The notes below the pieces were generated by a model. That model searched no databases. It saw only the letters and a program-made list of their open reading frames with translations, and was not told the DNA's origin. From positions 181,570 to 197,570 of the IMG/VR virus record IMGVR_UViG_3300045988_160359: a stretch of DNA of 16,001 bases. One strand, written 5' to 3'. Both the position numbers and the translations under genes were made by a program. The stretch's first letter is position 1. Each line of letters begins with the position of its first letter. This DNA comes from a virus. Positions 30-16,001 of this stretch are shown here, piece by piece.

Positions 30-58
30 ATTATAGCATATTTTTTAATATATGTCAA
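30..58 (-). promoter_or_regulatory. Canonical sigma70-type promoter (TTGACA-N17-TATAAT) reading leftwards out of the window
   Basis: Minus strand reads TTGACA tatattaaaaaatatgc TATAAT (plus-strand TGTCAA at 53-58, ATTATA at 30-35). Spacer is exactly 17 nt. It lies downstream of the terminator of the 198..605 gene and points toward coordinate 1. Confidence 0.55.
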
Positions 59-197: not shown

Positions 198-605
198 TTA
201 AATCTTGCGGTAGCCCATAACCTTGGACTTCTTGCCCTCGGCATTAGCCACAGTCTGCTCAGCCTTCTCGACCTTCTCAGCGCCGACCAGCTTGGTCAAG
301 CGAGCGCCGACCTTAGCAATGGTCACATCCTCGGGCATATCACCCAGGGCATCCATCACAGCATTACGAGTCATAAACTCGGTATCGCTCAGGACGGCAT
401 ACACCTTATCCATCAGCTCGTCAGCCTCGGCCTTCTTAGCTGCGGCGCGCTCCTTAGCCTTGTCGGCCTTCTTGTCCAGCAGGGCAATCTCGTTCTCACA
501 GAACTCGATAATCTTGGTGGGCTCAACATCAGTCTCACCAGTATTCATCGCCTGGATAATAGCCTCATAAAAATCACGCTTAGTGGTGCGATCAGTAGTC
601 TTCAT
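198..605 (-). CDS. Hypothetical Ala/Lys/Glu-rich protein (~135 aa) with a coiled-coil-like middle; GC-rich moron
   Basis: ORF track 198..623 is extended by a TTG alternative start. The true ATG is M7 (MKTTDRTTKRDF...), preceded by an AAAGAGG RBS. The gene body is about 57% GC against about 39% for the window. It has its own promoter copy A and its own terminator. I recognise no family. Confidence 0.7.
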   Translation of the reverse strand: MKTTDRTTKRDFYEAIIQAMNTGETDVEPTKIIEFCENEIALLDKKADKAKERAAAKKAEADELMDKVYAVLSDTEFMTRNAVMDALGDMPEDVTIAKVGARLTKLVGAEKVEKAEQTVANAEGKKSKVMGYRKI

Positions 606-666
606 CTTGTATACCTCTTTCAAAAATTTATTTTTGTTGTAAGGTCTTCCTTTACCTTACATATAT

Positions 667-695
667 ATTATATAATTTTTTTTTAAAAAAATCAA
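667..695 (-). promoter_or_regulatory. Promoter cassette copy A (TTGATT-N17-TATAAT plus conserved leader)
   Basis: Minus strand: TTGATT tttttaaaaaaaaatta TATAAT ATATATGTAAGGTAAAGGAAG. Plus-strand AATCAA at 690-695 and ATTATA at 667-672. The leader contains a 7-bp hairpin, GTAAGGT aaaggaag ACCTTAC. It drives the 198..605 gene. Confidence 0.75.
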
Positions 696-715
696 AATAC
701 TTTATATTGAACCAG

Positions 716-2452
716 TTAAAAGAAGATTTTGCGAGGATTTTCGATTTCGTTCCCGTCTTCATCAATGAAATAACCCTTATCAAAATCGCAATATCCCGTT
801 TTGAGACTTACCCAACTGCGGTTAGGATTGTCTCTGCGATGCTCCATCCAGCCCTTGCCGTTCCAAGGAATAACATCCTGAACAGCATCCTCAGTCATCT
901 TCTCCAAATCCAGATAAGTATGGGAAATGTTCCACTTATCAACAAACTGCTCAACGGGGCCATAATCCTTGATTTCGCCAGAACGAATCTTCTTAGCACA
1001 ACACTCACACAGAGTATCAAAGTTGAGATGAGTGATATAGCCGTTGAACGCGATTTCAAATGTATTATCACTATGGATGAAATGGCGCTCAGGGTCAGGC
1101 AATTGGTCGCGCCAATCTTCACACTTTTCATTGTGGAGGTCAACCTCACGCTGACAAACGGGGCACTCAGCAGTCTCGTTATCATAGCAATCCTGACAAA
1201 TCAAACGGCCCTCAACCTCATACAATTCATCAGCATCGCAATAACGACCGCACTCTTCACATTCGCCATCACCATTACAGCTATGACAAATCAAATCGTT
1301 GGAACTCAGGAGACTTTCATCATAGCCGCTGGAAGTCTTACCGCAGCCCAGACACTCACTCACACCAGAATAATAAATATCAATCTTCTCCGGCAAAGCG
1401 GCATTCAAATACATCAGATGTTCAAAACGGAAATCACTATACATATGACCAGTAGAAAAATTCACAGGAATTTTCTTCTCGCCAACCTGAACAGTGTTCT
1501 CGCAATCGGCGCGATATCGGCAGGTAGTATCACGATACTGATAATGAAGGTTCTTCTCTGCCAGGCTTTTCAGCCAATTCAGGCACTCGCCCACCAGTTC
1601 ATCATTACAATAGGGATACTCGCGAATATTAACAATAACATCGCGGTCAACAACAAACAGGCAACGCCACTTCTTGCTGTTCCAATGACCATCAGGAATG
1701 TCCATCTCATAGTCAGGATTTCGCAGATACGCCACCACGACACAAGGAGAGTTCATCATCTCTACGGTACCCTGACGATAATCACCACAACCCTGCCAGC
1801 TCATACAACTGTCCCAGCCCTCGTTGTTATCACTCATAGTCATATAATCCAGAGGATGAATAGACAGGCACAATTCGCCGGTCAGCTTTTTCTGATTGAG
1901 GATACGAGAATGCTCCAAACGGAACTGCTCAAAGATTTCGTTCCACTCAGGGTTCTCAAAAGTGGCGAGAATCTTACCCAGAATCTTCACGGCCTTAGCA
2001 CCAGTATTCACACGAACGCCATTCACAGTGAACTCAGTGCGGCTCCAAGAGTTATTAGCCAGCATGTAGGAATCAATCAGCCGACAAATATTATCTGCCT
2101 GGTCATCATCCAGACCCAAAGCGGAATAAATATTCCGAGGCCAGAAATTTTCACGAATCAAAGTGTCCATCGCAGAGATACCGTTGCCATCTCCGCGATA
2201 ACGAGCATCGTTGATTTCATCGGCCAACTCTTCGACGCCCTTAGAGAAGTTAAAGGACTTCCTCAGAACAAGCTGCTCACCGAACATCGTATAGAGACGC
2301 TCCTTAGCCTCTGCCCACGGCGCCATCGTGTTCGGCATAGACTGAACATAACAACCAGTCGCATCATATTCATCATTCTTGCCGCCATATGCCTCAATGT
2401 AAGCACGAATCAGATCAATATCTTCCGTAGTCAGGGCGTCATACAGATTCAT
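716..2452 (-). CDS. Large hypothetical protein (578 aa) with a C-terminal cluster of CxxC zinc-ribbon-like motifs
   Basis: Real ATG at 2450-2452 (MNLYDALTT), immediately downstream of cassette B. The composition is protein-like (D/E/K/N/W-rich). The C-terminal third carries CLGC, CHSC, CEEC, CQDC, CPVC and CECC motifs. I did not recognise the family. The antisense strand is also open (707..2506 +). Confidence 0.85.
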   Translation of the reverse strand: MNLYDALTTEDIDLIRAYIEAYGGKNDEYDATGCYVQSMPNTMAPWAEAKERLYTMFGEQLVLRKSFNFSKGVEELADEINDARYRGDGNGISAMDTLIRENFWPRNIYSALGLDDDQADNICRLIDSYMLANNSWSRTEFTVNGVRVNTGAKAVKILGKILATFENPEWNEIFEQFRLEHSRILNQKKLTGELCLSIHPLDYMTMSDNNEGWDSCMSWQGCGDYRQGTVEMMNSPCVVVAYLRNPDYEMDIPDGHWNSKKWRCLFVVDRDVIVNIREYPYCNDELVGECLNWLKSLAEKNLHYQYRDTTCRYRADCENTVQVGEKKIPVNFSTGHMYSDFRFEHLMYLNAALPEKIDIYYSGVSECLGCGKTSSGYDESLLSSNDLICHSCNGDGECEECGRYCDADELYEVEGRLICQDCYDNETAECPVCQREVDLHNEKCEDWRDQLPDPERHFIHSDNTFEIAFNGYITHLNFDTLCECCAKKIRSGEIKDYGPVEQFVDKWNISHTYLDLEKMTEDAVQDVIPWNGKGWMEHRRDNPNRSWVSLKTGYCDFDKGYFIDEDGNEIENPRKIFF

Positions 2453-2486
2453 TTTGTATCATTTCCTTTCTTCATCTTATATATAT

Positions 2487-2515
2487 ATTATATTATAAAT
2501 TTATAAAAAAATCAA
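2487..2515 (-). promoter_or_regulatory. Promoter cassette copy B (TTGATT-N17-TATAAT plus leader), identical to copy H
   Basis: Minus strand: TTGATT tttttataaatttataa TATAAT ATATATATAAGATGAAGAAAGGAAATGATACAAA ATG. Plus 2447-2501 is identical to 15947-16001. The leader holds an 8-codon uORF (MKKGNDTK*) whose stop overlaps the gene ATG (ATGA). Confidence 0.8.
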
Positions 2516-2516
2516 A

Positions 2517-2549
2517 TAAGGGTCTTACCGCCGAAAGGTAAGACCCTTA
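2517..2549 (-). terminator. Rho-independent terminator (bidirectional) ending the upstream operon
   Basis: 13-bp stem taagggtcttacc / ggtaagaccctta with loop gccgaaa. T-runs lie on both sides (minus atttgattttttt, plus tttttgggggg). It abuts promoter B. Confidence 0.8.
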
Positions 2550-2585
2550 TTTTTGGGGGGATGAAATCAACAAACTGGGGATATA

Positions 2586-4076
2586 TTACTTAACCTGATT
2601 CATCAGCATCAGAGGAATGGCCATGTCCTTCATATCGCCATCATTCATCAGCATCAGCATCATAGGGTTAAACGCATTGGTAGAACCATTGGCCTGGCTC
2701 ATCAGCATCATAGGAATCAGCATATCCTTCATATCGGACTTGCCATCCATCAACATCAGCATCCACATATTGCCAAAGGGGTTCTCAGAAGTGGGAGTCT
2801 GGCCCATCAGGTTATCAAACAGAGACACAACCTTGGTAGCGAAATTGAAGCCAAACATATTCTTAGAAGGCATAATAGTCTTCTTCTCACCAGCCACGGG
2901 GTCAATGGCAACCAGGTCGCCGGCCTCGGTCTTGCTGATAACGAACATAGGCTTGCGTGCGTGGATAACGACATCGCCCACCGCAATGTCCTTGATAGCC
3001 ACAGGCATCTTGAACAGGAAATTGGAACCATCGAAATTGAACACATCGACGTCCATCAGGTCGCCAGCGCTCTTATCATAAGCGGTCCAGACGCCAGAAG
3101 CATTCTTAACAGCCATACCATACATAGACATACGGATGGAATCGTTGGTAATCTTACCGAAATCAAAATTGAAACCCTTCATTTTATTCTCCTTTTCTTC
3201 ATTATCCTTTTTTTCGTAATTCTTACAGTTTTTACACAGGTCATCACAGCAAATGCTTACCTGGTCAGCGCAAGGCTTGATAACATCAGCCCTAGTATTA
3301 AGTTTGGCAACAGAAACCAAATCGTCCGCACTAATAGGCTTAGTGCTACTTGTAGTTGCAAACCAATCAAGAGTGAGGCTATCCGGCTTTACGGCATTGG
3401 TAATGGGCTTAGTAGTGCTGGTAGGCACATTCCAATCAATAGTAAAACCATCAAGCGTCTCAGTATTGGTAGTCGCCTTAGTCGCAGTATTATCTGCGAT
3501 TGGACCGCCTGTAATGCCATTCCAATTCAAATTAGAGGGCTGAGTGGTCGCATAAGCAGGTGAATACTTATCAGCATCGGTGTAAATTTTTTCATATACA
3601 TCGTTGTAATAGTTATTGGTTTCCTTATACTGCTTAATGATATTCTTGTAATAATATTTATCGTTAATAGTCATTTCTCTCTTCCAATTCAATTCTGCTG
3701 TGGTAGGCTTCGTAGAAATGACATACTCAGTGGCTTCTTTTACCTCAATATTGCACATCAATACTTTGACAATAAATTGAGGGGTCAACTCATTGACAAG
3801 AAACTGACCGAAGGATTTATCATCAAAATAAAAGTTTGGAACATTTTCAACGAATACTTTTTTTGTATCAACGTCAAAATGAACAGATGTTGGAACGATT
3901 TTATTATCAACTCTGGAACAACGTTCCTTAATTGTCTTACGAATCTTACACCAAGCATCGTAATCAAACTTCTTATATTGCTTTTGCTTGACTGCCTTAT
4001 TAAACTTCTCAAACAGTTCATCGAACGCGGATTGAGAACATTTAACATACAGAGTGGGACTCTTAATTGTTGCCAT
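2586..4076 (-). CDS. Repeat-containing protein (496 aa) with a Thr/Ser-rich repeated linker and a Met-rich C-terminal tandem repeat
   Basis: ATG at 4074-4076 with RBS GGAGGAAGATA. The N-terminal part is very AT-rich (K/N/Y/I). The middle has repeats DWNVPTSTTKPI and DWFATTSSTKPI. The C-terminus carries two 23-aa repeats, NMWMLMLMDGKSDMKDMLIPMMLM and NPMMLMLMNDGDMKDMAIPLMLM. An FNF motif recurs (GFNFDFG, VFNFDGSNF, MFGFNFATK). Confidence 0.85.
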   Translation of the reverse strand: MATIKSPTLYVKCSQSAFDELFEKFNKAVKQKQYKKFDYDAWCKIRKTIKERCSRVDNKIVPTSVHFDVDTKKVFVENVPNFYFDDKSFGQFLVNELTPQFIVKVLMCNIEVKEATEYVISTKPTTAELNWKREMTINDKYYYKNIIKQYKETNNYYNDVYEKIYTDADKYSPAYATTQPSNLNWNGITGGPIADNTATKATTNTETLDGFTIDWNVPTSTTKPITNAVKPDSLTLDWFATTSSTKPISADDLVSVAKLNTRADVIKPCADQVSICCDDLCKNCKNYEKKDNEEKENKMKGFNFDFGKITNDSIRMSMYGMAVKNASGVWTAYDKSAGDLMDVDVFNFDGSNFLFKMPVAIKDIAVGDVVIHARKPMFVISKTEAGDLVAIDPVAGEKKTIMPSKNMFGFNFATKVVSLFDNLMGQTPTSENPFGNMWMLMLMDGKSDMKDMLIPMMLMSQANGSTNAFNPMMLMLMNDGDMKDMAIPLMLMNQVK

Positions 4077-5075: not shown

Positions 5076-5229
5076 CAATTCCTTTTAATTCATTATATAA
5101 ATCCATAATCAATCTATGAGAACATTTCAGAGGATATGTTTCCATATCTGTATCATATTTTTTATATGGACATTCATCACATATAAATTCAGTACAGCAT
5201 TCAAGTGCTTTTTTAATTTCTTCTTTCAT
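5056..5229 (-). CDS. Cys-rich mini-protein (57 aa, MKEEIKKALECCTEFICDECPYKKY...CSH), putative Zn-binding
   Basis: Not in the track. Its ATG is the ATAAG-ATG of cassette C, only about 13 nt after the -10, so it is near-leaderless. CCx4CxxC...CxH pattern. The stop overlaps the next gene's start region. Confidence 0.4.
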   Translation of the reverse strand: MKEEIKKALECCTEFICDECPYKKYDTDMETYPLKCSHRLIMDLYNELKGIDEYVNH

Positions 5230-5240
5230 CTTATATATAT

Positions 5241-5269
5241 ATTATATTATATTTTTTTTAAAAAATCAA
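5241..5269 (-). promoter_or_regulatory. Promoter cassette copy C
   Basis: Minus: TTGATT ttttaaaaaaaatataa TATAAT ATATATATAAGATG. Plus AATCAA at 5264-5269 and ATTATA at 5241-5246. The -35 overlaps the stop of the upstream 49-aa ORF. No terminator lies upstream. Confidence 0.75.
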
Positions 5270-5415
5270 TCGAATAGATTTTTACCAAACTCTCTGCGGT
5301 ATGCGTCTTCGAACATATGCCAATTACCGCAGAAATAGGTATCTACATACCAGTCAACCAAATCGGCGTTAACAGCCTCTTTGATAATGCTAGCAAATAC
5401 ATCTGTGTAATCCAT
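5266..5415 (-). CDS. Small protein (49 aa, MDYTDVFASIIKEAVNADLVDWYVDTYFCGNWHMFEDAYRREFGKNLFD)
   Basis: Not in the track. The ATG overlaps the stop of 5415..5723 (TAATG) with a GAGGAGG RBS inside the upstream gene's end. I read the frame codon by codon. Confidence 0.5.
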   Translation of the reverse strand: MDYTDVFASIIKEAVNADLVDWYVDTYFCGNWHMFEDAYRREFGKNLFD

Positions 5416-5723
5416 TAATATGCCTCCTCAACCTGATACCAAGTAGCAAGAGAACGATGAGTATAATAGCGTGTATACGCATCTACCCAAATAGCCTCCT
5501 CAGCCCACTGAATATGTTCTTTGGCCAGCTCATCGCGTACCTGCTCAACATAATAGTCAATAGTATTATCAAAAATAACACCCTGCTCAACCAAATTATC
5601 ATAGAAAGTATCTACAATAATCTGAGCGCGCATATTGACTACGCCGGGGTCACAAACAATAAATGCAGAACGAGCTCGGTCATCAGATCTCAAACCATAT
5701 TTTATATGATAACGATAATTCAT
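5415..5723 (-). CDS. Paralog family member 3 of 3 (102 aa; N-terminal YRYHIKYGL..., C-terminal ...TWYQVEEAY)
   Basis: ATG at 5721-5723. Its RBS GAGGAG lies in the last codons of the upstream paralog. It shares the N-terminal YxIxYGL motif and the C-terminal WYxVE motif with 5726..6082 and 6082..6447. Confidence 0.8.
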   Translation of the reverse strand: MNYRYHIKYGLRSDDRARSAFIVCDPGVVNMRAQIIVDTFYDNLVEQGVIFDNTIDYYVEQVRDELAKEHIQWAEEAIWVDAYTRYYTHRSLATWYQVEEAY

Positions 5724-5725
5724 AA

Positions 5726-6082
5726 TTACAACTCCTCAAATGGGTCATTAATGTCCATCAATTCCGCCTGATACCAAATATGGTCTTCAAGCATATCATT
5801 GTATTTATTAACCCCAAGGGCCCAGAATGATTGACCTTTATATTCCGGACCCACCGGACGTTTGCCAGTCAAATATTTTACTTTATCTCGGTATTCTTCA
5901 ACAAACTCACCAATAGAATGATTCCATTTAAATCTCTTTCCACGAGCCAGAGCTTCAAAATGATTACGAGCAATACATTGAGCATCTTCAAGAGCCTCTT
6001 CAAGACTCTCGCTATAACGAGTCATAGTTATCATATCGCCCACATCATAAGTGCCGTAAGTAAGCAAATATTTATGAAACAT
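5726..6082 (-). CDS. Paralog family member 2 of 3 (~118 aa, MFHKYLLTYGTYD...WYQAELMDINDPFEEL)
   Basis: Track ORF 5726..6097 is extended. Real ATG at 6080-6082 with a GGGAGGAG RBS, in TAATG overlap with the stop of 6082..6447. Confidence 0.8.
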   Translation of the reverse strand: MFHKYLLTYGTYDVGDMITMTRYSESLEEALEDAQCIARNHFEALARGKRFKWNHSIGEFVEEYRDKVKYLTGKRPVGPEYKGQSFWALGVNKYNDMLEDHIWYQAELMDINDPFEEL

Positions 6083-6447: not shown

Positions 6448-6479
6448 AAGCCCATTTCCTTCCTTTACCTTATATATAT

Positions 6480-6508
6480 ATTATATAATAATTTTTAATA
6501 AAAATCAA
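6480..6508 (-). promoter_or_regulatory. Promoter cassette copy D
   Basis: Minus: TTGATT tttattaaaaattatta TATAAT ATATATATAAGGTAAAGGAAGGAAATGG. Plus AATCAA at 6503-6508 and ATTATA at 6480-6485. Confidence 0.8.
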
Positions 6509-6517
6509 TAAAAAAAA

Positions 6518-7341: not shown

Positions 7342-7726
7342 AAGTAACTGTCTCCTCATAAGTTGGAATAATTGGGCACTTTTCATTTTTCTCTGCTACT
7401 GGACAATGATTAAGAGTCTCACGACACATGGTCATTTCATCGCCAGTCCAACTATTATAATTCAAATAACTCATATCACAATTTGTAGGATTAGGAACGA
7501 AAGAAGTATCCGTATCATAATTGTCAAGATGAATTTCATTCTTCTCATTTTTACACCGCAGACGCCGACCACAATACGGACAATAGTTTATCTGACGCTG
7601 AATATGAATGAAATCATCATCATAATCGCTCCACTCACCGGTCTCAATATCGAAATACCAAGCATCATCAGTGGGATTGTAATAAACTTCGTGGTCATAC
7701 ATCTTCGGATTACAGCAATCACACAT
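7325..7726 (-). CDS. Cys-rich Zn-finger-like protein (~133 aa, MCDCCNPKMYDHE...CPYCGRRLRC...)
   Basis: Track ORF 7325..7741 is extended by TTG. Real ATG at 7724-7726 (GGGGGGAAATGTA ATG) in TAATG overlap with the upstream stop. Has CDCC and CPYCx4C motifs plus further Cys and His. Confidence 0.7.
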   Translation of the reverse strand: MCDCCNPKMYDHEVYYNPTDDAWYFDIETGEWSDYDDDFIHIQRQINYCPYCGRRLRCKNEKNEIHLDNYDTDTSFVPNPTNCDMSYLNYNSWTGDEMTMCRETLNHCPVAEKNEKCPIIPTYEETVTYENPC

Positions 7727-7995
7727 TACATTTCCCCCCAAGGTCTTTCTTCGATTTCACACTCAAACTTTGTCAGACGATACCGCTTATTACTGATATT
7801 TTTAGGAGCGAGACAATCCATCATAAACGCCGCATTGAATTCCATCGGGCCGGTAAACTCCGTAGATTCTCCATTGGCGCGTGCCTTACGAATCAGATTA
7901 CCAACATATGCTTTGGCTTGTGCATCGTTTTCAGCAATGATTACCTGCTTAGTAAACTCCATACCCTGATGGGCGTAATAAATATACATTTTCAT
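7726..7995 (-). CDS. Hypothetical protein (89 aa)
   Basis: ATG at 7993-7995 with a GGAGGTAAGATGAT RBS embedded in the upstream gene's last codons. Confidence 0.75.
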   Translation of the reverse strand: MKMYIYYAHQGMEFTKQVIIAENDAQAKAYVGNLIRKARANGESTEFTGPMEFNAAFMMDCLAPKNISNKRYRLTKFECEIEERPWGEM

Positions 7996-7996
7996 A

Positions 7997-8731
7997 TCAT
8001 CTTACCTCCGCAACACGAGTTAATATAGTCTGATGAATGTTGTGATAGAGATTATAATTCTTCACAGTCCCGCGAATACGATGCTTAGTACCCTCGGGCC
8101 AGTCCTTCGCAGTAGTAGTCCAGAGATAAATGTTTCCGGACTCGTCCTCAAAAGTCATCATATTGGAATGACCATAATTGGTTTCCAGTTTGTAATTACG
8201 AATGACCACAATACTGCGGTCAATGCGCTCACCAACAGCGCCCTGATACTGACTGGGATGCTCTGGCCACAATAAAGCATCAATATTCTCGTGGATTTCG
8301 GCATCAGTCTTCAACTTCTCGTCATCATTACCAACCAGCGCCCACTCCAACTTCATAGGATTACAGTCAGTAGGCAAGTCCTCAGGAAGGTCGATATCAG
8401 AAGGGAAATACCAGCCCCACAGCCGGCAATACCGGGCAGGAGAATACTTAAAATACTCATTGTTTTCATCCATTCCACCATTCTTAAAAATGGTGATATA
8501 ATCATTTACAAAACCCAGAACAATCTTCTGGGTCTTAAAGGGAATGCTCTGCGGTTCAGCGATGCCATACATCTTGTTATATTCGTCCTCGCTATACCAC
8601 CGCACTTGTCTAGTGCTACCGTTCTTGGGGTTCTGGACCTTCACATACTGACGTCCATTAACAGTATATACCTCGCTCACAATGGCGTAGGACTGGAAAG
8701 ACTTCGCTACCATTTGTATCATTCCCTTCAT
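7997..8731 (-). CDS. Hypothetical protein (238-244 aa), first gene of operon E
   Basis: Three in-frame ATGs lie at the 5' end (8731, 8722, 8713). By analogy with the cassette B leader, the third (MVAKSFQSYAIV..., 8713) is homologous to the gene start used in copy B. No family recognised. The N- and C-terminal thirds have a beta-rich, OB-like character (impression only). Confidence 0.8.
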   Translation of the reverse strand: MKGMIQMVAKSFQSYAIVSEVYTVNGRQYVKVQNPKNGSTRQVRWYSEDEYNKMYGIAEPQSIPFKTQKIVLGFVNDYITIFKNGGMDENNEYFKYSPARYCRLWGWYFPSDIDLPEDLPTDCNPMKLEWALVGNDDEKLKTDAEIHENIDALLWPEHPSQYQGAVGERIDRSIVVIRNYKLETNYGHSNMMTFEDESGNIYLWTTTAKDWPEGTKHRIRGTVKNYNLYHNIHQTILTRVAEVR

Positions 8732-8746
8732 TCATCTTATATATAT

Positions 8747-8775
8747 ATTATATAATATTTTTTAATAAAAATCAA
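8747..8775 (-). promoter_or_regulatory. Promoter cassette copy E
   Basis: Minus: TTGATT tttattaaaaaatatta TATAAT ATATATATAAGATGAATGAAGGGAATGATACAAATGG. Plus AATCAA at 8770-8775 and ATTATA at 8747-8752. Confidence 0.8.
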
Positions 8776-8807: not shown

Positions 8808-9485
8808 CAAAATACTTGTATCAATAATTGAAAAATTAGCCCTATGAACGTACAAATCCATATCATCAATTGTGATATGCGTGGTCTTGGGCAAATTCTT
8901 ACAAAGTTCCCAACTAACATCAGACCCGCTATACATTCGGATAGGCTCGCCTGTCTGAGACTGAATCACGACAACACGAGGCTTCACCGTACGCCCGTGA
9001 GACTGTTCGTTAATACACCACCACTGAACAGTCCAATAGTCAGTCCAATTCATACTATACCAAGGTTCATTAACATCAATATAAGCATCATTGGTGCGGA
9101 CGTGAGTATTAATAACCTCAGGAATATTCATATCCAAGATTTCAAGGCGGTTATCGGCAAAAATAATAGTTGAACCGCACGAATCAATCTGCTTGCCGTC
9201 GATATATACAGACATTACAGAGGACATTGTCCAATTATATTCCCAATATCCTTCGGTGCTATAAGTATATTCCTTCACCTTGTTCGGCTCAATATTGAAA
9301 GTAGAGCCGGTTGCGCTCAGCCACAGGTCGCCGGCGTTATCGTAAAAATCAGCATTGAAAGTGATTTTTACTGCTTCATCTTCTGGCTTATCAGTACCGA
9401 GAGTCTCGCCCTTCGGCCCGCCTACACAGCCGGCGCACATCAGAATAATCAAAACCGCCATCAACGCACACAGAAACTTACGCAT
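8799..9485 (-). CDS. Putative lipoprotein (~228 aa) with signal peptide and lipobox (MRKFLCALMAVLIILMCAG|C)
   Basis: Track ORF 8799..9569 is 5'-extended. The ATG at 9483-9485 has a GGGAGGAG RBS and overlaps the upstream stop (TAATG). Basic N-terminus, hydrophobic core and an A-G-C lipobox. The mature part is Trp/Tyr/Asn-rich. Last gene of the operon. Confidence 0.75.
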   Translation of the reverse strand: MRKFLCALMAVLIILMCAGCVGGPKGETLGTDKPEDEAVKITFNADFYDNAGDLWLSATGSTFNIEPNKVKEYTYSTEGYWEYNWTMSSVMSVYIDGKQIDSCGSTIIFADNRLEILDMNIPEVINTHVRTNDAYIDVNEPWYSMNWTDYWTVQWWCINEQSHGRTVKPRVVVIQSQTGEPIRMYSGSDVSWELCKNLPKTTHITIDDMDLYVHRANFSIIDTSILKG

Positions 9486-9735
9486 TAGTCTCCTCCCACC
9501 ATTTGGTAAACGGCATCCAGTGAAGAACAATATCGCCCTCGCAAATATTGCCCCAGACTTCTCCATCATAATCCCAATAACTTACTGAATAACTCTCTTC
9601 GGTCATATCGGGGCGGCCCCGATAAACAGGAGCGGTATGAACGACATAGGCCTTAGCCTTATCTTTAAGAGACGGATAATCACTGGGCACGCTTTCAAGA
9701 GCATTTACCCAACCACTTTTAATTTCAACGCTCAT
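9478..9735 (-). CDS. DUF551-like small protein (85 aa; ...GDIVLHWMPFTKWWEETNA)
   Basis: ATG at 9733-9735 lies inside the last codons of the upstream gene. The C-terminal HWMP motif with a Trp-rich tail and the N-terminal W...L.S.P segment resemble Pfam DUF551, from memory. Confidence 0.45.
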   Translation of the reverse strand: MSVEIKSGWVNALESVPSDYPSLKDKAKAYVVHTAPVYRGRPDMTEESYSVSYWDYDGEVWGNICEGDIVLHWMPFTKWWEETNA

Positions 9736-10018
9736 AAATAATCAAATTTCCTTCCTTATCATATAAGGGCGAGAGTGCTCCATTTGTATAAATATATACG
9801 ACGCCAGTATTTCGGTCAGCGACCGCATATGCATCTCCACCTAGCACCTCGCCCTTATCAACTGGGATAAATAGTTCTCTATCTTCTGGAAATACGATAC
9901 CATTATCTACGGTATTAGGTTTAAATAACGAGAAAATGTTAATAAACATAACCGCCACTAACAGAATCGCCGCAGTCAGGCACGCTGTTCCAAGATATTT
10001 CTTAATCGAATCCAACAT
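9725..10018 (-). CDS. Membrane-anchored small protein, paralog 2 of 2 (~97 aa)
   Basis: N-terminal TM helix (CLTAAILLVAVMFINIF), then FPEDRELFIPVDKGEVLGGDAYAVADRNTGVVYIYTNGALSPLYDKEGNLIIY. This aligns clearly with 10002..10364. The ATG (second codon of the track ORF) lies within the 3' end of the upstream paralog. Confidence 0.8.
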   Translation of the reverse strand: MLDSIKKYLGTACLTAAILLVAVMFINIFSLFKPNTVDNGIVFPEDRELFIPVDKGEVLGGDAYAVADRNTGVVYIYTNGALSPLYDKEGNLIIYER

Positions 10019-10364: not shown

Positions 10365-10376
10365 TTGACTACCTCC

Positions 10377-10661
10377 TTAATCGAGATTGCCAAAAATTTG
10401 ATTCATTGCTTTGCGGTATTCAGTTTCGGTGATTTCATCATAGTCGGCTTCGGACTCGTGAAAGTAATAGTCTTCGGTCATACCACGCTTAACGATTTCA
10501 TCGCTATCAAAATACTTAGTCGCAATCTCGTCCAAGTTATCTTCAATAAAGTCGTGAAGTGTATAATAGATTTCGTCCTCAGTATTACCTCTGAAATAGA
10601 CATAGAACTCGTCCTTGTCTCTGAGCGCGGTAGTGATGGTAATATGGAAATATTTAGTCAT
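10377..10661 (-). CDS. Acidic hypothetical protein (94 aa)
   Basis: ATG at 10659-10661 is in ATGA overlap with the stop of the upstream 57-aa ORF. GGGGTGA RBS. Very D/E/Y-rich. Confidence 0.75.
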   Translation of the reverse strand: MTKYFHITITTALRDKDEFYVYFRGNTEDEIYYTLHDFIEDNLDEIATKYFDSDEIVKRGMTEDYYFHESEADYDEITETEYRKAMNQIFGNLD

Positions 10662-10831
10662 TCCGCATCACCCCGATTGATGTAGGTATCAATGATATTC
10701 AGACAATGAGCGATATAACATCCTTCGTCGTTATCCAGTTCGCCATGTTTGACCAAAGCATCAATCTCAGTCCGAATGTTCATCAGACAGGCATTGGCTT
10801 CGACCTTATTAACAGTAGTAGGAATATTCAT
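10658..10831 (-). CDS. Small protein (57 aa, MNIPTTVNKVEANACLMNIRTEIDALVKHGELDNDEGCYIAHCLNIIDTYINRGDAE)
   Basis: Not in the track. Perfect GGAGGGTAAGTA RBS. The ATG is in TAATG overlap with the upstream stop. I read the frame codon by codon. Confidence 0.55.
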   Translation of the reverse strand: MNIPTTVNKVEANACLMNIRTEIDALVKHGELDNDEGCYIAHCLNIIDTYINRGDAE

Positions 10832-11735: not shown

Positions 11736-11764
11736 TGAGAAATCACCTTTCCTTTACCTTATAT

Positions 11765-11793
11765 ATATATTATATTATAAATTTTTAAAAAAA
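11765..11793 (-). promoter_or_regulatory. Promoter cassette copy F
   Basis: Minus: TTGATT tttttaaaaatttataa TATAAT ATATATATAAGGTAAAGGAAAGGTG. Plus AATCAA at 11788-11793 and ATTATA at 11765-11770. Only a weak 6-bp hairpin lies upstream (gagaga...tctctc), so there is no strong terminator here. Confidence 0.75.
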
Positions 11794-11797
11794 TCAA

Positions 11798-12094
11798 TTA
11801 GAGAGAATATTTCTTGATAAAATCTCTCAAACCGTAGTCATAAAGGTCGGCATCAAGCTGGTCATCGTTGATATCGTCGAACGCATTAGGGATTTCGTAG
11901 ATTGCGTAATCATACTCGCGTTCACCCTCCTCGTAGAGGTCGGTCAATGTAGTATAACTATCAATCAGTTCATCACACAAACATCGACCGATTTCATCGG
12001 CCTCACTAAAAGTATTAATGTGGTAGATGCCGCAATTGAAATATCCGTGGAGCCCGCCATAATAGGGCTCAGTTGCGTAAATTGCTACTCTCAC
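11798..12094 (-). CDS. Acidic protein (~98 aa), a possible ArdA-like DNA-mimic or anti-restriction candidate (low confidence)
   Basis: The best start is GTG at 12092-12094. GAGAGGAG lies 7 nt upstream and the GTG is in 4-nt GTGA overlap with the HNH gene's stop. The track's upstream ATG (12121) has no SD. The N-terminal VAIYATEPYYGGLHGYF loosely resembles the ArdA N-terminal IYVANLxxYNxGxLxGxW motif. The C-terminal half is strongly D/E/Y-rich. Confidence 0.6.
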   Translation of the reverse strand: MRVAIYATEPYYGGLHGYFNCGIYHINTFSEADEIGRCLCDELIDSYTTLTDLYEEGEREYDYAIYEIPNAFDDINDDQLDADLYDYGLRDFIKKYSL

Positions 12095-12804
12095 GCTTTT
12101 ACTCCTCTCAAATAATTCCATTTACGAGAATACATAGAACCATTCATACGAATGGTATTGCACAGCTTAAAGAAAAACTTCTCTTCGGTGGTGCTAACCT
12201 TAGAATTGTGCTGACAAAGCCAATCCATAGCCTCCATTGCCGTGCCTCTAAAACCATCATTGTTGATAAAAACAGTATCAAGAGTGATACCCTCTTGAAC
12301 AATGAAGGCGCGACAAGTAGTATCAGTAGTAGTAGCCAGCCATTTACCCAGAATATCGCCGCAGTTTTCCAGAATTTTCCCAGTATCCCGGTCGGTGGGT
12401 TCGGCGGTCTCAATAGGTTTAATAGGCTCAGTACCTGCATTGATTACAACAGGGACAGGGCTCGCCACAATATCATTGTTAGCGCGCATAAGATTCTCGG
12501 CCTGGCTAACCCATTCCAGATTATCAACGCGGTTATTGCGCTTATTGTGATCGAGATGGTCAACAGTGAATGCCTCGCGGTCTTCGATGGGACACCACGT
12601 ATACATTACCAAACGATGTGCCATACGGTTGCCGTGTTTGGTCTTTACAGACACATAGCCGTTCTGAGAATAAATTTTCTTAGGAATAGGACGCTTATGA
12701 ATGTCCTTAAAGTTGCCGAAGTTGGAAACCCAAACTCCATACTCCTTATTAAACTTCCACTTTTCAAACTCAATATGCAAGGTGGGAAAAATCATCATAA
12801 ACAT
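12091..12804 (-). CDS. HNH homing endonuclease (NUMOD4 N-terminal motif plus HNH_3-type core)
   Basis: EFEKWKFNKEYGVWVSNFGNFKD matches the N-terminal signature of phage HNH homing endonucleases. HRLVMYTWCPIEDREAFTVDHLDHNKRNNRVDNLEWVSQAENL is the HNH_3 catalytic motif (DH..-N-N.....NL.W......N). ATG is M2 of the track ORF, with an AAAGGAATTG RBS. It is driven by its own cassette copy G. Confidence 0.85.
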   Translation of the reverse strand: MFMMIFPTLHIEFEKWKFNKEYGVWVSNFGNFKDIHKRPIPKKIYSQNGYVSVKTKHGNRMAHRLVMYTWCPIEDREAFTVDHLDHNKRNNRVDNLEWVSQAENLMRANNDIVASPVPVVINAGTEPIKPIETAEPTDRDTGKILENCGDILGKWLATTTDTTCRAFIVQEGITLDTVFINNDGFRGTAMEAMDWLCQHNSKVSTTEEKFFFKLCNTIRMNGSMYSRKWNYLRGVKA

Positions 12805-12834
12805 CAATTCCTTTCTCTTTTACCTTATATATAT

Positions 12835-12863
12835 ATTATATAATAATTTTTAAAAAAAATCAA
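12835..12863 (-). promoter_or_regulatory. Promoter cassette copy G (drives the HNH endonuclease)
   Basis: Minus: TTGATT ttttttaaaaattatta TATAAT ATATATATAAGGTAAAAGAGAAAGGAATTG ATG. The -35 (plus 12858-12863) lies inside the left arm of the terminator stem at 12860-12898. Confidence 0.8.
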
Positions 12864-12898
12864 TAGAGGATTTTACGTTTGGTAAAATCCTCTATTGA
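12860..12898 (-). terminator. Rho-independent terminator ending operon H
   Basis: 17-bp stem (12860-12876 / 12882-12898; ...atagaggattttac gtttg gtaaaatcctctat...). Followed on the minus strand by a U-run (plus 12852-12857 A-run). It begins 9 nt after the stop of 12907..13191. Confidence 0.8.
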
Positions 12899-15952: not shown

Positions 15953-15986
15953 TTTGTATCATTTCCTTTCTTCATCTTATATATAT

Positions 15987-16001
15987 ATTATATTATAAAT
16001 T
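15987..16001 (-). promoter_or_regulatory. Promoter cassette copy H (partial; -10 and leader only inside the window)
   Basis: 15947-16001 is identical to 2447-2501 (copy B). By that offset the -10 lies at 15987-15992 and the -35 would be just beyond the window end. Confidence 0.6.

What the first reader, a model, noticed from the sequence alone, without database searches (positions are those of the whole stretch)
707..2506. 578-aa CxxC-rich protein whose antisense strand is open for 599 codons
The 716..2452 (-) gene has a clean promoter cassette, ATG and protein-like composition. Its complementary strand carries an uninterrupted 1.8-kb ORF (707..2506 +) with skewed I/L/T/N-rich composition. 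Such a long stop-free antisense frame is unusual at 40-47% GC and implies the sense frame almost completely avoids TTA, CTA and TCA codons in that register. The sense protein ends in at least six CxxC-type pairs (CLGC, CHSC, CEEC, CQDC, CPVC, CECC), which suggests several zinc ribbons. Its N-terminal 350 aa are unrecognised. It has its own cassette (B) and no terminator before cassette A.
Basis: seen in the sequence. Interest (0 to 1): 0.6.

Follow-up and report, generated by a model that had tools for sequence, protein, structure and literature searches.

The report
Codon-bias shadow ORF over phage gene
The 599-codon antisense reading frame is not a gene but a mirror-image by-product of an early phage gene that almost never uses codons ending in A; the real 578-aa product belongs to a large phage protein family of unknown function.

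Summary
ORF 716..2452(-) encodes 578 aa, and ORF 707..2506(+) runs 599 codons in exact codon register with it. The sense gene has no TTA, CTA or TCA codons and six CxxC pairs. The antisense frame is a by-product, not a gene. Only 6.6% of sense codons end in A. Nine of 24 ORFs in the window have the same fully open mirror frame. Across 78 homologues the number of antisense stops (median 6, range 0-33) tracks the A-ending codon fraction. Antisense dN/dS is 1.06-1.40, against 0.11-0.50 for the sense frame. The antisense amino-acid composition mirrors the sense composition, and all promoters lie on the minus strand.

The window comes from a ~199-kb human-gut phage that reads TAG as a sense codon in a second, A-ending-rich gene class. 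This gene belongs to the TAG-free class behind a strong sigma-70-type promoter, which I infer to be early. The protein belongs to a large unannotated family (4,717 clusters, PHROG 18912). It has a helical N-domain, a highly conserved core with no convincing match to any solved structure, and LIM-like zinc fingers. It heads a conserved five-gene module that includes a paralogue and an M20/M28-like peptidase. Its function is unknown. Low interest for the antisense ORF, moderate for the module.

The parts
716..2452 (-). Real gene g1: 578-aa protein, no in-frame TAG, A3 = 6.6%, first gene of a conserved five-gene module
   Evidence: ORF. Codon table. Sense dN/dS 0.11-0.50 against three orthologues. 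2357 homologues and 4717 cluster representatives. Module synteny.
707..2506 (+). 599-codon antisense shadow ORF in register -1; non-coding by-product of the sense gene's codon bias
   Evidence: 0 stops in register, 26-35 in the other antisense frames. dN/dS 1.06-1.40. Composition mirrors the sense D/N/Y, E/K/Q, R/G/C/S and I/V codons. No Pfam hit. Broken by CTA in 2 of 3 orthologues. Median of 6 stops in 78 homologues.
2036..2452 (-). N-terminal helical domain (aa 1-139)
1397..2035 (-). Conserved alpha/beta core (aa 140-352). Holds most invariant residues, including the motifs SIHPLDYMTMSDN, SCMSW, GDYRQGTVEMMNS, WNSKKWR and YPY
1154..1354 (-). LIM-like zinc-finger module (aa 367-433): C-x2-C-x18-C-x2-C-x5-C-x2-C-x17-C-x2-C, followed by CPVC
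   Evidence: CxxC positions. Cys conservation. Family profile matches LIM proteins CRP2/CRP1 at E 3.5e-6 to 3e-4. Prok-RING_4 scores 23.6 bits, below its cut-off of 27.
998..1009 (-). CECC motif (aa 482-485). By my inference it completes a third zinc site with CPVC 430-433
   Evidence: C482 and C430 are at least 90% conserved. The pairing itself is inferred, not tested.
2471..2515 (-). Promoter cassette B: TTGATT-17-TATAAT embedded in a ~45-bp AT-rich cassette that occurs 8 times in the window, always on the minus strand
   Evidence: 10 of 12 consensus positions. (8 copies; 0.14 expected by chance).
2463..2467 (-). Shine-Dalgarno-like AGGAA, 10 nt upstream of the ATG at 2452
   Evidence: Read directly from the sequence. 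Similar GGAA or GGTGA elements follow the other cassettes.
2514..2552 (-). Intrinsic-terminator-like hairpin of the upstream 496-aa gene. Its T-run overlaps the -35 hexamer of cassette B
   Evidence: 16-pair stem, 6 GC pairs, T-rich tail.
667..695 (-). Promoter cassette A (TTGATT-17-TATAAT) for the next gene, g2. No terminator separates it from the g1 stop codon
198..605 (-). g2: conserved 135-aa neighbour (141 aa if read from the TTG at 623). It has the most extreme codon bias in the window (A3 about 1%) and also has an open mirror frame
   Evidence: Conserved directly downstream of g1 in nearly all loci. Only a weak match to PHROG 14735.

Best explanation
The 707..2506(+) ORF is a shadow ORF. 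In register -1, antisense stops can arise only opposite sense TTA, CTA or TCA codons, and the gene on the minus strand uses none of them because it avoids almost all A-ending codons (A3 = 6.6%). That avoidance marks a gene class in a ~199-kb human-gut phage. Genes of this class have no in-frame TAG, and several, including this one, sit behind strong sigma-70-type promoter cassettes. A second class carries in-frame TAG, has 30-40% A-ending codons, and is rich in TTA.

Inferred: the first class is translated early with the host's tRNA pool and standard code. The second class is translated later, with help from phage-encoded tRNAs for A-ending codons and a TAG suppressor.

The real product is a 578-aa protein with a helical N-domain, a highly conserved alpha/beta core that has many invariant polar residues and no convincing solved-structure relative, and a C-terminal LIM-like zinc-finger module. 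It is the first gene of a conserved five-gene module: g1, a 135-aa protein, a ~265-aa Cys-tailed protein, an M20/M28-like metallopeptidase with zinc ribbons, and a full-length paralogue of g1.

Inferred at roughly 30% confidence: g1 is an abundantly made early effector. Its core would be a catalytic or ligand-binding domain, its zinc fingers would dock it onto a protein or nucleic-acid target, and it would act together with the peptidase and the paralogue in host takeover or macromolecule modification.
For: Register and absence of TTA, CTA and TCA.
A3 and full codon table.
Probability of no antisense stop: 0.07 to 0.49 from the biased neighbours, 0.023 from the low-A3 genes, 1e-4 from all other ORFs.
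Nine of 24 window ORFs have fully open mirror frames.
Across 78 IMG/VR homologues the antisense stop count has a median of 6 and a range of 0-33, and correlates with A3 (rho 0.69). Among full-length homologues only this species has zero.
Two of three orthologues carry a CTA.
dN/dS is 0.11-0.50 for the sense frame and 1.06-1.40 for the antisense frame.
The antisense I/L/T/N richness is the mirror of sense D/N/Y, E/K/Q, R/G/C/S and I/V codons.
All 8 promoter cassettes lie on the minus strand.
No Pfam or Rfam hit on the antisense frame or the region.
Two gene classes and in-frame TAG in the 199-kb contig that carries the identical protein. A3 correlates with TAG density (rho 0.48).
Related phages carry tRNA arrays dominated by U34 anticodons, including Leu-UAG, Leu-UAA and Ser-UGA. 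In L050 the array starts about 600 bp downstream of a copy of the same cassette.
Published precedents: codon optimisation explains frame -1 antiparallel ORFs (bioRxiv 10.1101/724807); recoded gut phages keep some genes in standard code, which the authors interpret as early genes (bioRxiv 10.1101/2021.08.26.457843).
Protein: alignment and invariant residues; AF2 pLDDT 90.8; LIM-like profile hits; PHROG 18912; conserved module order in at least 15 loci; g4 matches Peptidase_M28 at 22.8 bits (cut-off 21.3) and a PDB tripeptidase at E 4e-6; g5 shares all three domains with g1.
Against: Measured against its class rather than against itself, the gene is still a mild outlier: P is about 0.003-0.07. 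TTA, CTA and TCA are 0 of 74 Leu and Ser codons, while other A-ending codons in the Ala, Gly, Pro, Thr, Val, Arg and Ile families are 12 of 197 (my tally of the table). Some extra avoidance of these three codons cannot be excluded.
Because TAG is a sense codon in this phage, the CTA codons seen in two orthologues would not interrupt the antisense frame under the recoded code.
The early timing, the host tRNA argument and the phage-tRNA supply are all inferred. No tRNA or suppressor tRNA was seen in the ~38 kb held for this species. The tRNA arrays come from relatives whose g1 homologue is only 30-40% identical.
Confidence: 0.85

Rival explanations
1. The antisense ORF is a real overlapping gene that encodes a 599-aa I/L/T/N-rich protein, perhaps a membrane protein, possibly translated late under the recoded genetic code.
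For: The frame is stop-free for 599 codons. It stays open in the 85%-identical orthologue. In the two more distant orthologues it is interrupted only by TAG, which this phage reads as a sense codon. The class-based probability of no stops is only 0.003-0.07.
Against: dN/dS in the antisense frame is 1.06-1.40, while the sense frame shows purifying selection. The composition is an exact mirror of the sense codon bias. The start is TTG with no Shine-Dalgarno element or promoter cassette, and all 8 cassettes are on the other strand. No family hit. Homologues in other lineages carry up to 33 stops, and the count scales with A3. Eight other ORFs in the window show the same property.
Confidence: 0.02
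2. The absence of TTA, CTA and TCA, and of A-ending codons in general, is not selection for translation by host tRNAs. It could come from transcription- or replication-linked mutational asymmetry on the coding strand (T much greater than A). Alternatively, these genes may be selected to be independent of U34 tRNAs that a host defence, such as an anticodon nuclease, or the phage itself depletes.
For: The coding strand is G- and T-rich throughout the window: GC skew is about -0.2 on the plus strand, and T3 is 0.44 against A3 of 0.07. Related phages carry many U34 tRNAs, which would also fit replacement of depleted host tRNAs.
Against: A3 varies from 0.01 to 0.33 between adjacent genes on the same strand, and it correlates with TAG use. 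A uniform mutational bias cannot produce that pattern. GAA and AAA are still used (25 codons), so U34 tRNAs are not avoided entirely. No anticodon-nuclease evidence was sought or found.
Confidence: 0.12
3. The 578-aa protein is not an enzyme. It is a structural or adaptor protein, for example a nucleic-acid- or protein-binding scaffold, whose conserved core is an interaction surface.
For: No catalytic family was detected by sequence or fold. LIM-like fingers typically mediate binding. The gene is paired with a paralogue, which suggests a hetero-oligomer.
Against: The 54-sequence alignment has 51 invariant columns at about 35% pairwise identity. They are concentrated in aa 160-281 and are rich in His, Asp, Cys, Arg, Lys, Ser and Glu. 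That pattern is more typical of an active site or ligand pocket.
Confidence: 0.3

Closest known systems
Frame -1 antiparallel (shadow) ORFs produced by codon bias (bioRxiv 10.1101/724807; also Silke 1997, recalled from memory and not checked)
   Same: Same register. Antisense stops can lie only opposite TTA, CTA or TCA. The probability formula based on Leu and Ser codon frequencies is the one applied here. The same conclusion follows: codon optimisation of the sense gene explains the ORF.
   Different: The sequence has only about 46% GC, and the cause is avoidance of A-ending codons in one phage gene class rather than high genomic GC. At 599 codons the ORF spans the whole gene.
Stop-codon-recoded gut phages that keep part of their genes in the standard code (Borges et al., bioRxiv 10.1101/2021.08.26.457843; the larger-genome Jade and Sapphire clades)
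   Same: A large human-gut phage genome in which only a subset of genes carries in-frame TAG. This gene is TAG-free.
   Different: Clade membership was not tested. No suppressor tRNA or release factor was seen in the sequence held. The sharp A3 split between the two gene classes was measured here and is not taken from that paper.
LIM domain and other binuclear treble-clef zinc fingers, including Pfam Prok-RING_4
   Same: Eight Cys arranged C-x2-C-x18-C-x2-C ... C-x2-C-x17-C-x2-C. The family profile hits CRP2/CRP1 LIM domains at E 3.5e-6 to 3e-4.
   Different: The linker between the two fingers is x5 rather than x2. All ligands are Cys. Pfam LIM matches only 2 of 54 members at E no better than 0.0057, and Prok-RING_4 falls below its cut-off. 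The domain is attached to an unrelated phage core domain.
PHROG 18912 (phage protein family of unknown function)
   Same: The core domain matches at E 1.3e-7 for g1 and E 3.4e-19 for the paralogue g5.
   Different: The PHROG carries no functional information. No member was found in the INPHARED phage genome collection by tblastn.
GNAT-fold acyltransferases

Membership tests
Overlapping antisense protein-coding gene | Purifying selection on the antisense-frame product | tested here: not met
   Nei-Gojobori dN/dS is 1.06-1.40 in the antisense register and 0.11-0.50 in the sense frame, over 6 orthologue pairs.
Overlapping antisense protein-coding gene | Own expression signals (promoter, ribosome-binding site, canonical start) | tested here: not met
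   The start is TTG. No cassette lies on the plus strand, and the plus-strand sigma-70-like hits do not exceed the shuffled expectation.
Overlapping antisense protein-coding gene | The ORF is conserved across homologues independently of sense codon bias | tested here: not met
   The 78 homologues have a median of 6 antisense stops, and the count tracks A3 (rho 0.69). Two of three orthologues have a CTA.
Codon-bias shadow ORF (frame -1) | Exact codon register with a real gene that lacks TTA, CTA and TCA, with the same property in other biased genes of the genome | tested here: met
   Nine of 24 window ORFs are fully open.
LIM domain (PF00412) | C-x2-C-x16-23-[HC]-x2-C-x2-C-x2-C-x16-21-C-x2-[CHD] pattern, and a score above the Pfam threshold | tested here: inconclusive
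   The spacing is x18 and x17, but the inter-finger linker is x5. PDB LIM proteins are hit by the family profile at E 3.5e-6. Pfam LIM is hit by only 2 of 54 members, at E no better than 0.0057. Zinc binding was not tested.
Prok-RING_4 (PF14447) | Score at or above the gathering threshold of 27 bits | tested here: not met
   23.6 bits over aa 416-439. Only 2 of 54 members match.
PHROG 18912 | Significant profile match over the core domain | tested here: met
   E 1.3e-7 over aa 148-413. The paralogue matches at E 3.4e-19. The family has no known function.
GNAT acyltransferase superfamily | A strong fold match and the CoA pyrophosphate-binding motif in beta4-alpha3 | tested here: not met
Stop-codon-recoded phage (TAG read as sense), standard-code gene class | In-frame TAG in a subset of genes, with this gene free of TAG | tested here: met
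   On the 199-kb contig encoding the identical protein, 13 of 32 called genes carry 1-8 in-frame TAGs and g1 carries none. Among non-TAG residues aligned opposite TAG in orthologues, Q is the most frequent: 10 of 70, with L at 8 and N at 7. This is weak support for TAG = Gln.
Stop-codon-recoded phage (TAG read as sense), standard-code gene class | A phage-encoded suppressor tRNA(CUA) or release-factor change | not tested
   Only about 38 kb of this species' genome could be read, and it holds no tRNA.

The most novel reading that the evidence does not exclude
The conserved module (g1, a 135-aa protein, a Cys-tailed ~265-aa protein, an M20/M28-like peptidase with zinc ribbons, and a g1 paralogue) may be an undescribed early host-takeover or macromolecule-modification system. 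It is found in a very large clade of 100-330-kb gut phages that probably infect Bacillota. It would be built around a protein core domain with no relative among solved structures, tethered by LIM-like zinc fingers.
Probability: 0.3. Interest if true: 0.55.

Novelty: already known. Interest (0 to 1): 0.25.

Why it matters
The headline feature, a 1.8-kb stop-free antisense frame, is a textbook codon-bias artefact. Its practical value is as a warning for gene callers, which could call the wrong strand in low-A3 phage genes.

The context is more useful. This phage writes its genes in two codon dialects. One class is A-ending-poor, TAG-free and, for several genes, sits behind strong sigma-70-type promoters. 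The other is A-ending-rich and TAG-recoded. That gives a simple sequence-only marker for assigning genes to temporal classes in recoded phages.

The sense protein is the first gene of a strongly conserved module that is entirely unannotated. Its family has about 4,700 clusters at 50% identity and a confidently predicted fold that matches no solved structure. It is a reasonable target for structural and functional work, but nothing here yet points to a specific new mechanism.

Tried and rejected
1. Real antisense gene: rejected on dN/dS, composition, expression signals and lack of conservation.
2. Known protein family for the sense product. Pfam gave only a sub-threshold Prok-RING_4 hit. NCBIfam and PADLOC gave nothing. 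The PDB sequence profile hit only LIM proteins, in the C-terminal region.
4. Isolated-phage relatives: megablast of the window and tblastn of g1 and of a more typical family member against INPHARED found nothing.
5. Annotation through neighbours. The g3 family is entirely unannotated. g2 has only a weak match to a PHROG of unknown function. Only g4, the M20/M28-like peptidase, is recognisable.
6. I tried to show tRNAs for A-ending codons in this phage's own genome. An exact-pattern scan with the cassette reached only a sister lineage, whose g1 is 37-38% identical. Two look-ups of window proteins to extend the contig found no exact record.
7. The BFVD lead to Dickeya jumbo phages: the accession I guessed, MH460460, turned out to be phage JA13 (Salmondvirus, 254 kb, almost all genes hypothetical). 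I did not pursue it further.
8. Rfam scan of the window: no hit.
Full report
**1. The observation**

Both ORFs sit at the stated coordinates. ORF 707..2506(+) has 599 codons and a TTG start. ORF 716..2452(-) has 578 codons and an ATG start. The plus-strand frame is the exact codon-by-codon reverse complement of the sense frame. In this register an antisense TAA, TAG or TGA can lie only opposite a sense TTA, CTA or TCA. The sense gene has none of these among 43 Leu and 31 Ser codons. The other two antisense frames carry 35 and 26 stops, and the two off-frames of the sense strand carry 27 and 77. A TTGATT-17-TATAAT promoter lies at 2515..2487(-). A terminator-like hairpin at 2552..2514(-) belongs to the upstream gene. 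No terminator-like site lies between the stop codon at 716 and the next promoter at 695..667(-).

**2. Why the antisense frame is open**

Only 6.6% of the sense codons end in A, against 44% T, 27% G and 22% C. ATA, CCA, TTA, CTA and TCA are absent. ACA, CAA and AGA occur once each. TTA, CTA and TCA all end in A, so their absence is one part of a general avoidance of A-ending codons.

The probability of no antisense stop for this protein sequence depends on the codon table used.

| Codon table | P(no antisense stop) | Call |
|---|---|---|
| Uniform synonymous usage | 9e-11 | 12 |
| All other ORFs of the window | 7e-5 to 1e-4 | 12, 91 |
| ORFs with A3 below 0.15 (window plus L007) | 0.003 | 64 |
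| Low-A3 ORFs of the window (A3 at most 0.115) | 0.023 | 91 |
| The two flanking genes | 0.07 | 91 |
| The four most biased neighbours, no pseudocounts | 0.49 | 12 |
| The gene's own usage | 1 | by construction |

The gene is therefore the longest member, and one of the most biased, of a class in which this outcome is common. Nine of 24 ORFs in the window have a completely open mirror frame. These include the 237-aa gene under the 256-aa antisense ORF at 12073..12843(+). This matches the published account of frame -1 antiparallel ORFs, which uses the same Leu/Ser formula and attributes such ORFs to codon optimisation of the sense gene (bioRxiv 10.1101/724807).

**3. Evidence that the antisense frame is not coding**

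- Against three orthologues (85%, 78% and 53% aa identity), sense dN/dS is 0.11-0.50. The antisense register gives 1.06-1.40.
- The antisense excess of I, L, T and N is the mirror of sense codons. GAT, AAT and TAT become Ile. GAG, AAG and CAG become Leu. CGT, GGT, TGT and AGT become Thr. ATT and GTT become Asn.
- It starts with TTG and has no promoter cassette. All eight cassettes lie on the minus strand.
- It has no Pfam hit, and the window has no Rfam hit.
- Two of the three orthologues carry one CTA. Across 78 family members in IMG/VR the antisense stop count has a median of 6, ranges from 0 to 33, and correlates with A3 (rho 0.69, p = 2e-12). Among the full-length homologues only this phage species reaches zero.

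One caveat remains. TAG is read as a sense codon in this phage (section 4), so the CTA-derived TAGs in the orthologues would not end translation under the recoded code. The dN/dS, composition and expression-signal arguments do not depend on this.

**4. Genomic context**

The identical protein is encoded on human-gut metagenome contigs of 183-199 kb. The more distant orthologue P0007 lies on a 199.5-kb Hadza contig. The window is 100% identical to two of these contigs over the shared stretch. It has no match in INPHARED.

On the 199-kb contig the called genes fall into two classes.
- Genes with no in-frame TAG mostly have A3 of 0.04-0.25 and almost no TTA, CTA or TCA.
- Genes with 1-8 in-frame TAGs tend to have much higher A3, 0.29-0.40 for those with several TAGs, and many TTA codons (up to 37).

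A3 correlates with TAG density (rho 0.48). Among non-TAG residues aligned opposite TAG in orthologues, Gln is the most frequent at 10 of 70. Leu (8) and Asn (7) are close behind, so this is weak support for TAG = Gln.

This is the pattern described for recoded gut phages: only part of the genes use the alternative code, and the authors interpret the standard-code genes as early ones translated by host machinery (bioRxiv 10.1101/2021.08.26.457843).

The window holds eight near-identical ~45-bp cassettes, TTGATTTTT...TATAATATATATATAAG(A/G)T. Each has a sigma-70-type -35/-10 pair spaced by 17 nt and is followed by a GGAA or GGTGA Shine-Dalgarno-like element.

Family members found in genome collections all sit on MAG contigs, mostly binned as Clostridia or other Bacillota. 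Many of these contigs are 150-176 kb long. Together with the promoter and Shine-Dalgarno type, this suggests a Bacillota host. That is an inference.

Related phages carry tRNA arrays dominated by anticodons that start with U: Leu-UAG, Leu-UAA, Ser-UGA, Ile-UAU, Lys-UUU, Glu-UUC, Ala-UGC, Arg-UCU, Pro-UGG, Val-UAC, Gly-UCC and Gln-UUG. In L050 the array begins about 600 bp downstream of a copy of the same promoter cassette. The cassette-sharing contigs encode g1 homologues that are only 37-38% identical, and the other tRNA-bearing loci are 30-38% identical. No tRNA was seen in the ~38 kb held for this species. Phage supply of tRNAs for A-ending codons in this particular phage is therefore inferred, not shown.

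**5. The sense protein**

- Family size. A word-indexed search found 2,357 relatives, none with a Pfam domain or an informative name. A profile search of 1.84 billion cluster representatives found 4,717 at E at most 1e-3 and 1,917 at E at most 1e-30.
- Family hits. PHROG 18912 (unknown function) at E 1.3e-7, and a sub-threshold Prok-RING_4 match. NCBIfam and PADLOC gave nothing.
- Conservation. An alignment of 54 members at about 35% identity has 51 invariant columns. They are concentrated in aa 160-281 (SIHPLDYMTMSDN, W-x-SCMSW, GDYRQGTVEMMNS, WNSKKWR, YPY) and in seven Cys of the C-terminal region.
- Structure. AlphaFold2 gives a confident model, with mean pLDDT 90.8 and pTM 0.75. It has a helical N-domain (aa 1-139), an alpha/beta core (about aa 140-352) and a small-strand zinc region.
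- Core. The strand and helix order of the core resembles a GNAT fold, but the CoA-binding motif is absent. I treat this as a resemblance and not as membership.
- Zinc region. The spacing is C-x2-C-x18-C-x2-C-x5-C-x2-C-x17-C-x2-C. The family profile hits LIM proteins (CRP2 at E 3.5e-6). This is a LIM-like binuclear zinc module, followed by a probable third site made of CPVC and CECC.

**6. A conserved module**

Downstream of the gene lie, in fixed order:
- g2, 135 aa. This is the window gene 198..605(-), with A3 of about 1%.
- g3, about 265 aa, with a C-terminal Cys cluster and no annotation.
- g4, about 330 aa. It matches Peptidase_M28 at 22.8 bits (cut-off 21.3), PHROG 4191 'peptidase' at E 2e-27, and a PDB tripeptidase at E 4e-6. 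It has C-terminal CxxC ribbons.
- g5, 430-540 aa. It is a full-length paralogue of g1: the core HMM scores 79-93 bits, the zinc module 11-28 bits, and PHROG 18912 matches at E 3e-19.

The order g1-g2-g3-g4-g5 holds in at least 15 loci, down to about 30% identity. In this species g5 has one in-frame TAG and an A3 of 0.22. The two paralogues therefore sit in different codon classes.

**7. Mechanism**

Shown: the antisense ORF is a mechanical consequence of the absence of A-ending Leu and Ser codons in a gene under purifying selection.

Inferred with good support: that absence reflects membership of a TAG-free gene class behind strong sigma-70-type promoters, written in codons the host can read before phage tRNAs and the TAG suppressor act.

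Inferred with weak support, about 30%: the protein is an abundant early effector. Its invariant polar core would be catalytic or ligand-binding, and its LIM-like fingers would dock it to a target. It would work with the paralogue and the peptidase.

The rivals are listed separately, each with its test: a real antisense gene (about 2%), a cause of the codon bias other than translational selection (about 12%), and a non-enzymatic scaffold (about 30% for the function question).

**8. Verdict**

The protein does not belong to a well-known family. Its family and module are uncharacterised but already catalogued (PHROG 18912). Interest is low for the antisense ORF and moderate for the module. Overall score: 0.25.

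Noticed in passing
L003 (199,396-bp contig carrying the identical protein), e.g. 18025..19551, 19535..20968, 2745..3638, 9002..9895: The genome uses in-frame TAG as a sense codon in a subset of genes. Genes with several TAGs have 29-40% A-ending codons and many TTA. TAG-free genes mostly have 4-25% A-ending codons. The two codon dialects sit on one strand.
   Followed up: partly
window minus strand: 659-695, 2471-2515, 5225-5270, 6464-6510, 8731-8775, 11753-11800, 12819-12865, 15971-16001: Eight copies of a ~45-bp promoter cassette (TTGATTTTT ... TATAATATATATATAAGRT) with sigma-70-type hexamers spaced by 17 nt, each followed by a Shine-Dalgarno-like element; 0.14 copies expected by chance. The exact 23-mer also occurs in ~190-kb IMG/VR contigs of a sister lineage.
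   Followed up: partly
L050 5539..12966; also L044, L055, L082, L011 15865..20432, L012 17670..19113: Related phages carry arrays of 8-18 tRNAs, mostly with U at the first anticodon position (Leu-UAG, Leu-UAA, Ser-UGA, Ile-UAU, Lys-UUU, Glu-UUC, Ala-UGC, Arg-UCU). These are the tRNAs that read the A-ending codons avoided by the low-A3 genes. In L050 the array starts about 600 bp after a copy of the same promoter cassette.
   Followed up: partly
window 12073..12843(+) over 12091..12807(-); also 223..570(+), 5457..5771(+), 7406..7969(+), 10365..10685(+): Further long antisense ORFs in register with low-A3 genes. Nine of 24 ORFs in the window have a fully open mirror frame.
   Followed up: yes
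window 2586..4076(-): The upstream 496-aa protein ends in two Met-rich repeats (MWMLMLMDGKSDMKDMLIPMMLMSQ ... NPMMLMLMNDGDMKDMAIPLMLMNQ). It has no Pfam, PHROG, NCBIfam or PADLOC hit. Its orthologues are 466-502 aa long.
   Followed up: no
window 198..605(-) (ORF listed as 198..623 with a TTG start): A 135-aa protein with the most extreme codon bias in the window (about 1% A-ending codons). By eye it has a Lys/Ala/Glu-rich helical middle and a possible winged-helix-like C-terminus. It is always found directly downstream of g1 across the phage clade.
   Followed up: partly
window 58..30(-): A perfect sigma-70 consensus promoter (TTGACA-17-TATAAT, with TG before the -10 hexamer; 12 of 12 positions). 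It differs from the repeated cassette and lies upstream of where g3 begins in the related contigs.
   Followed up: no
L003 9002..9895 and 2745..3638; L007 9001..9894: Two 297-aa genes rich in TAG and TTA, inserted among low-A3 genes and absent from the window and from L001, L004 and L009 at the same sites. They have repeated G-x-RFG-x-L-x-V ... C-x-C-x-CG ... SCGC units and a C-terminal RFDFY ... IEY(D/N)G-x-QH segment. They look like mobile homing-endonuclease-type genes, but Pfam finds nothing.
   Followed up: partly
L003 14515..16077 (g5): The g1 paralogue has one in-frame TAG 33 codons before its stop, and 22% A-ending codons. Under the standard code it would be truncated to 487 aa. The two paralogues may therefore be expressed at different times or in different forms.
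   Followed up: no
window 2514..2552(-): The terminator hairpin of the upstream gene shares its T-run with the -35 hexamer of the g1 promoter, giving a compact terminator-promoter junction.
   Followed up: no
L012 4263..6686 and 15537..16382; L011 7299..8105: Relatives in the same clade encode an 807-aa protein with a major-vault-protein shoulder domain, a full sigma-70 family factor, and a Thg1-like tRNA-His guanylyltransferase.
   Followed up: no
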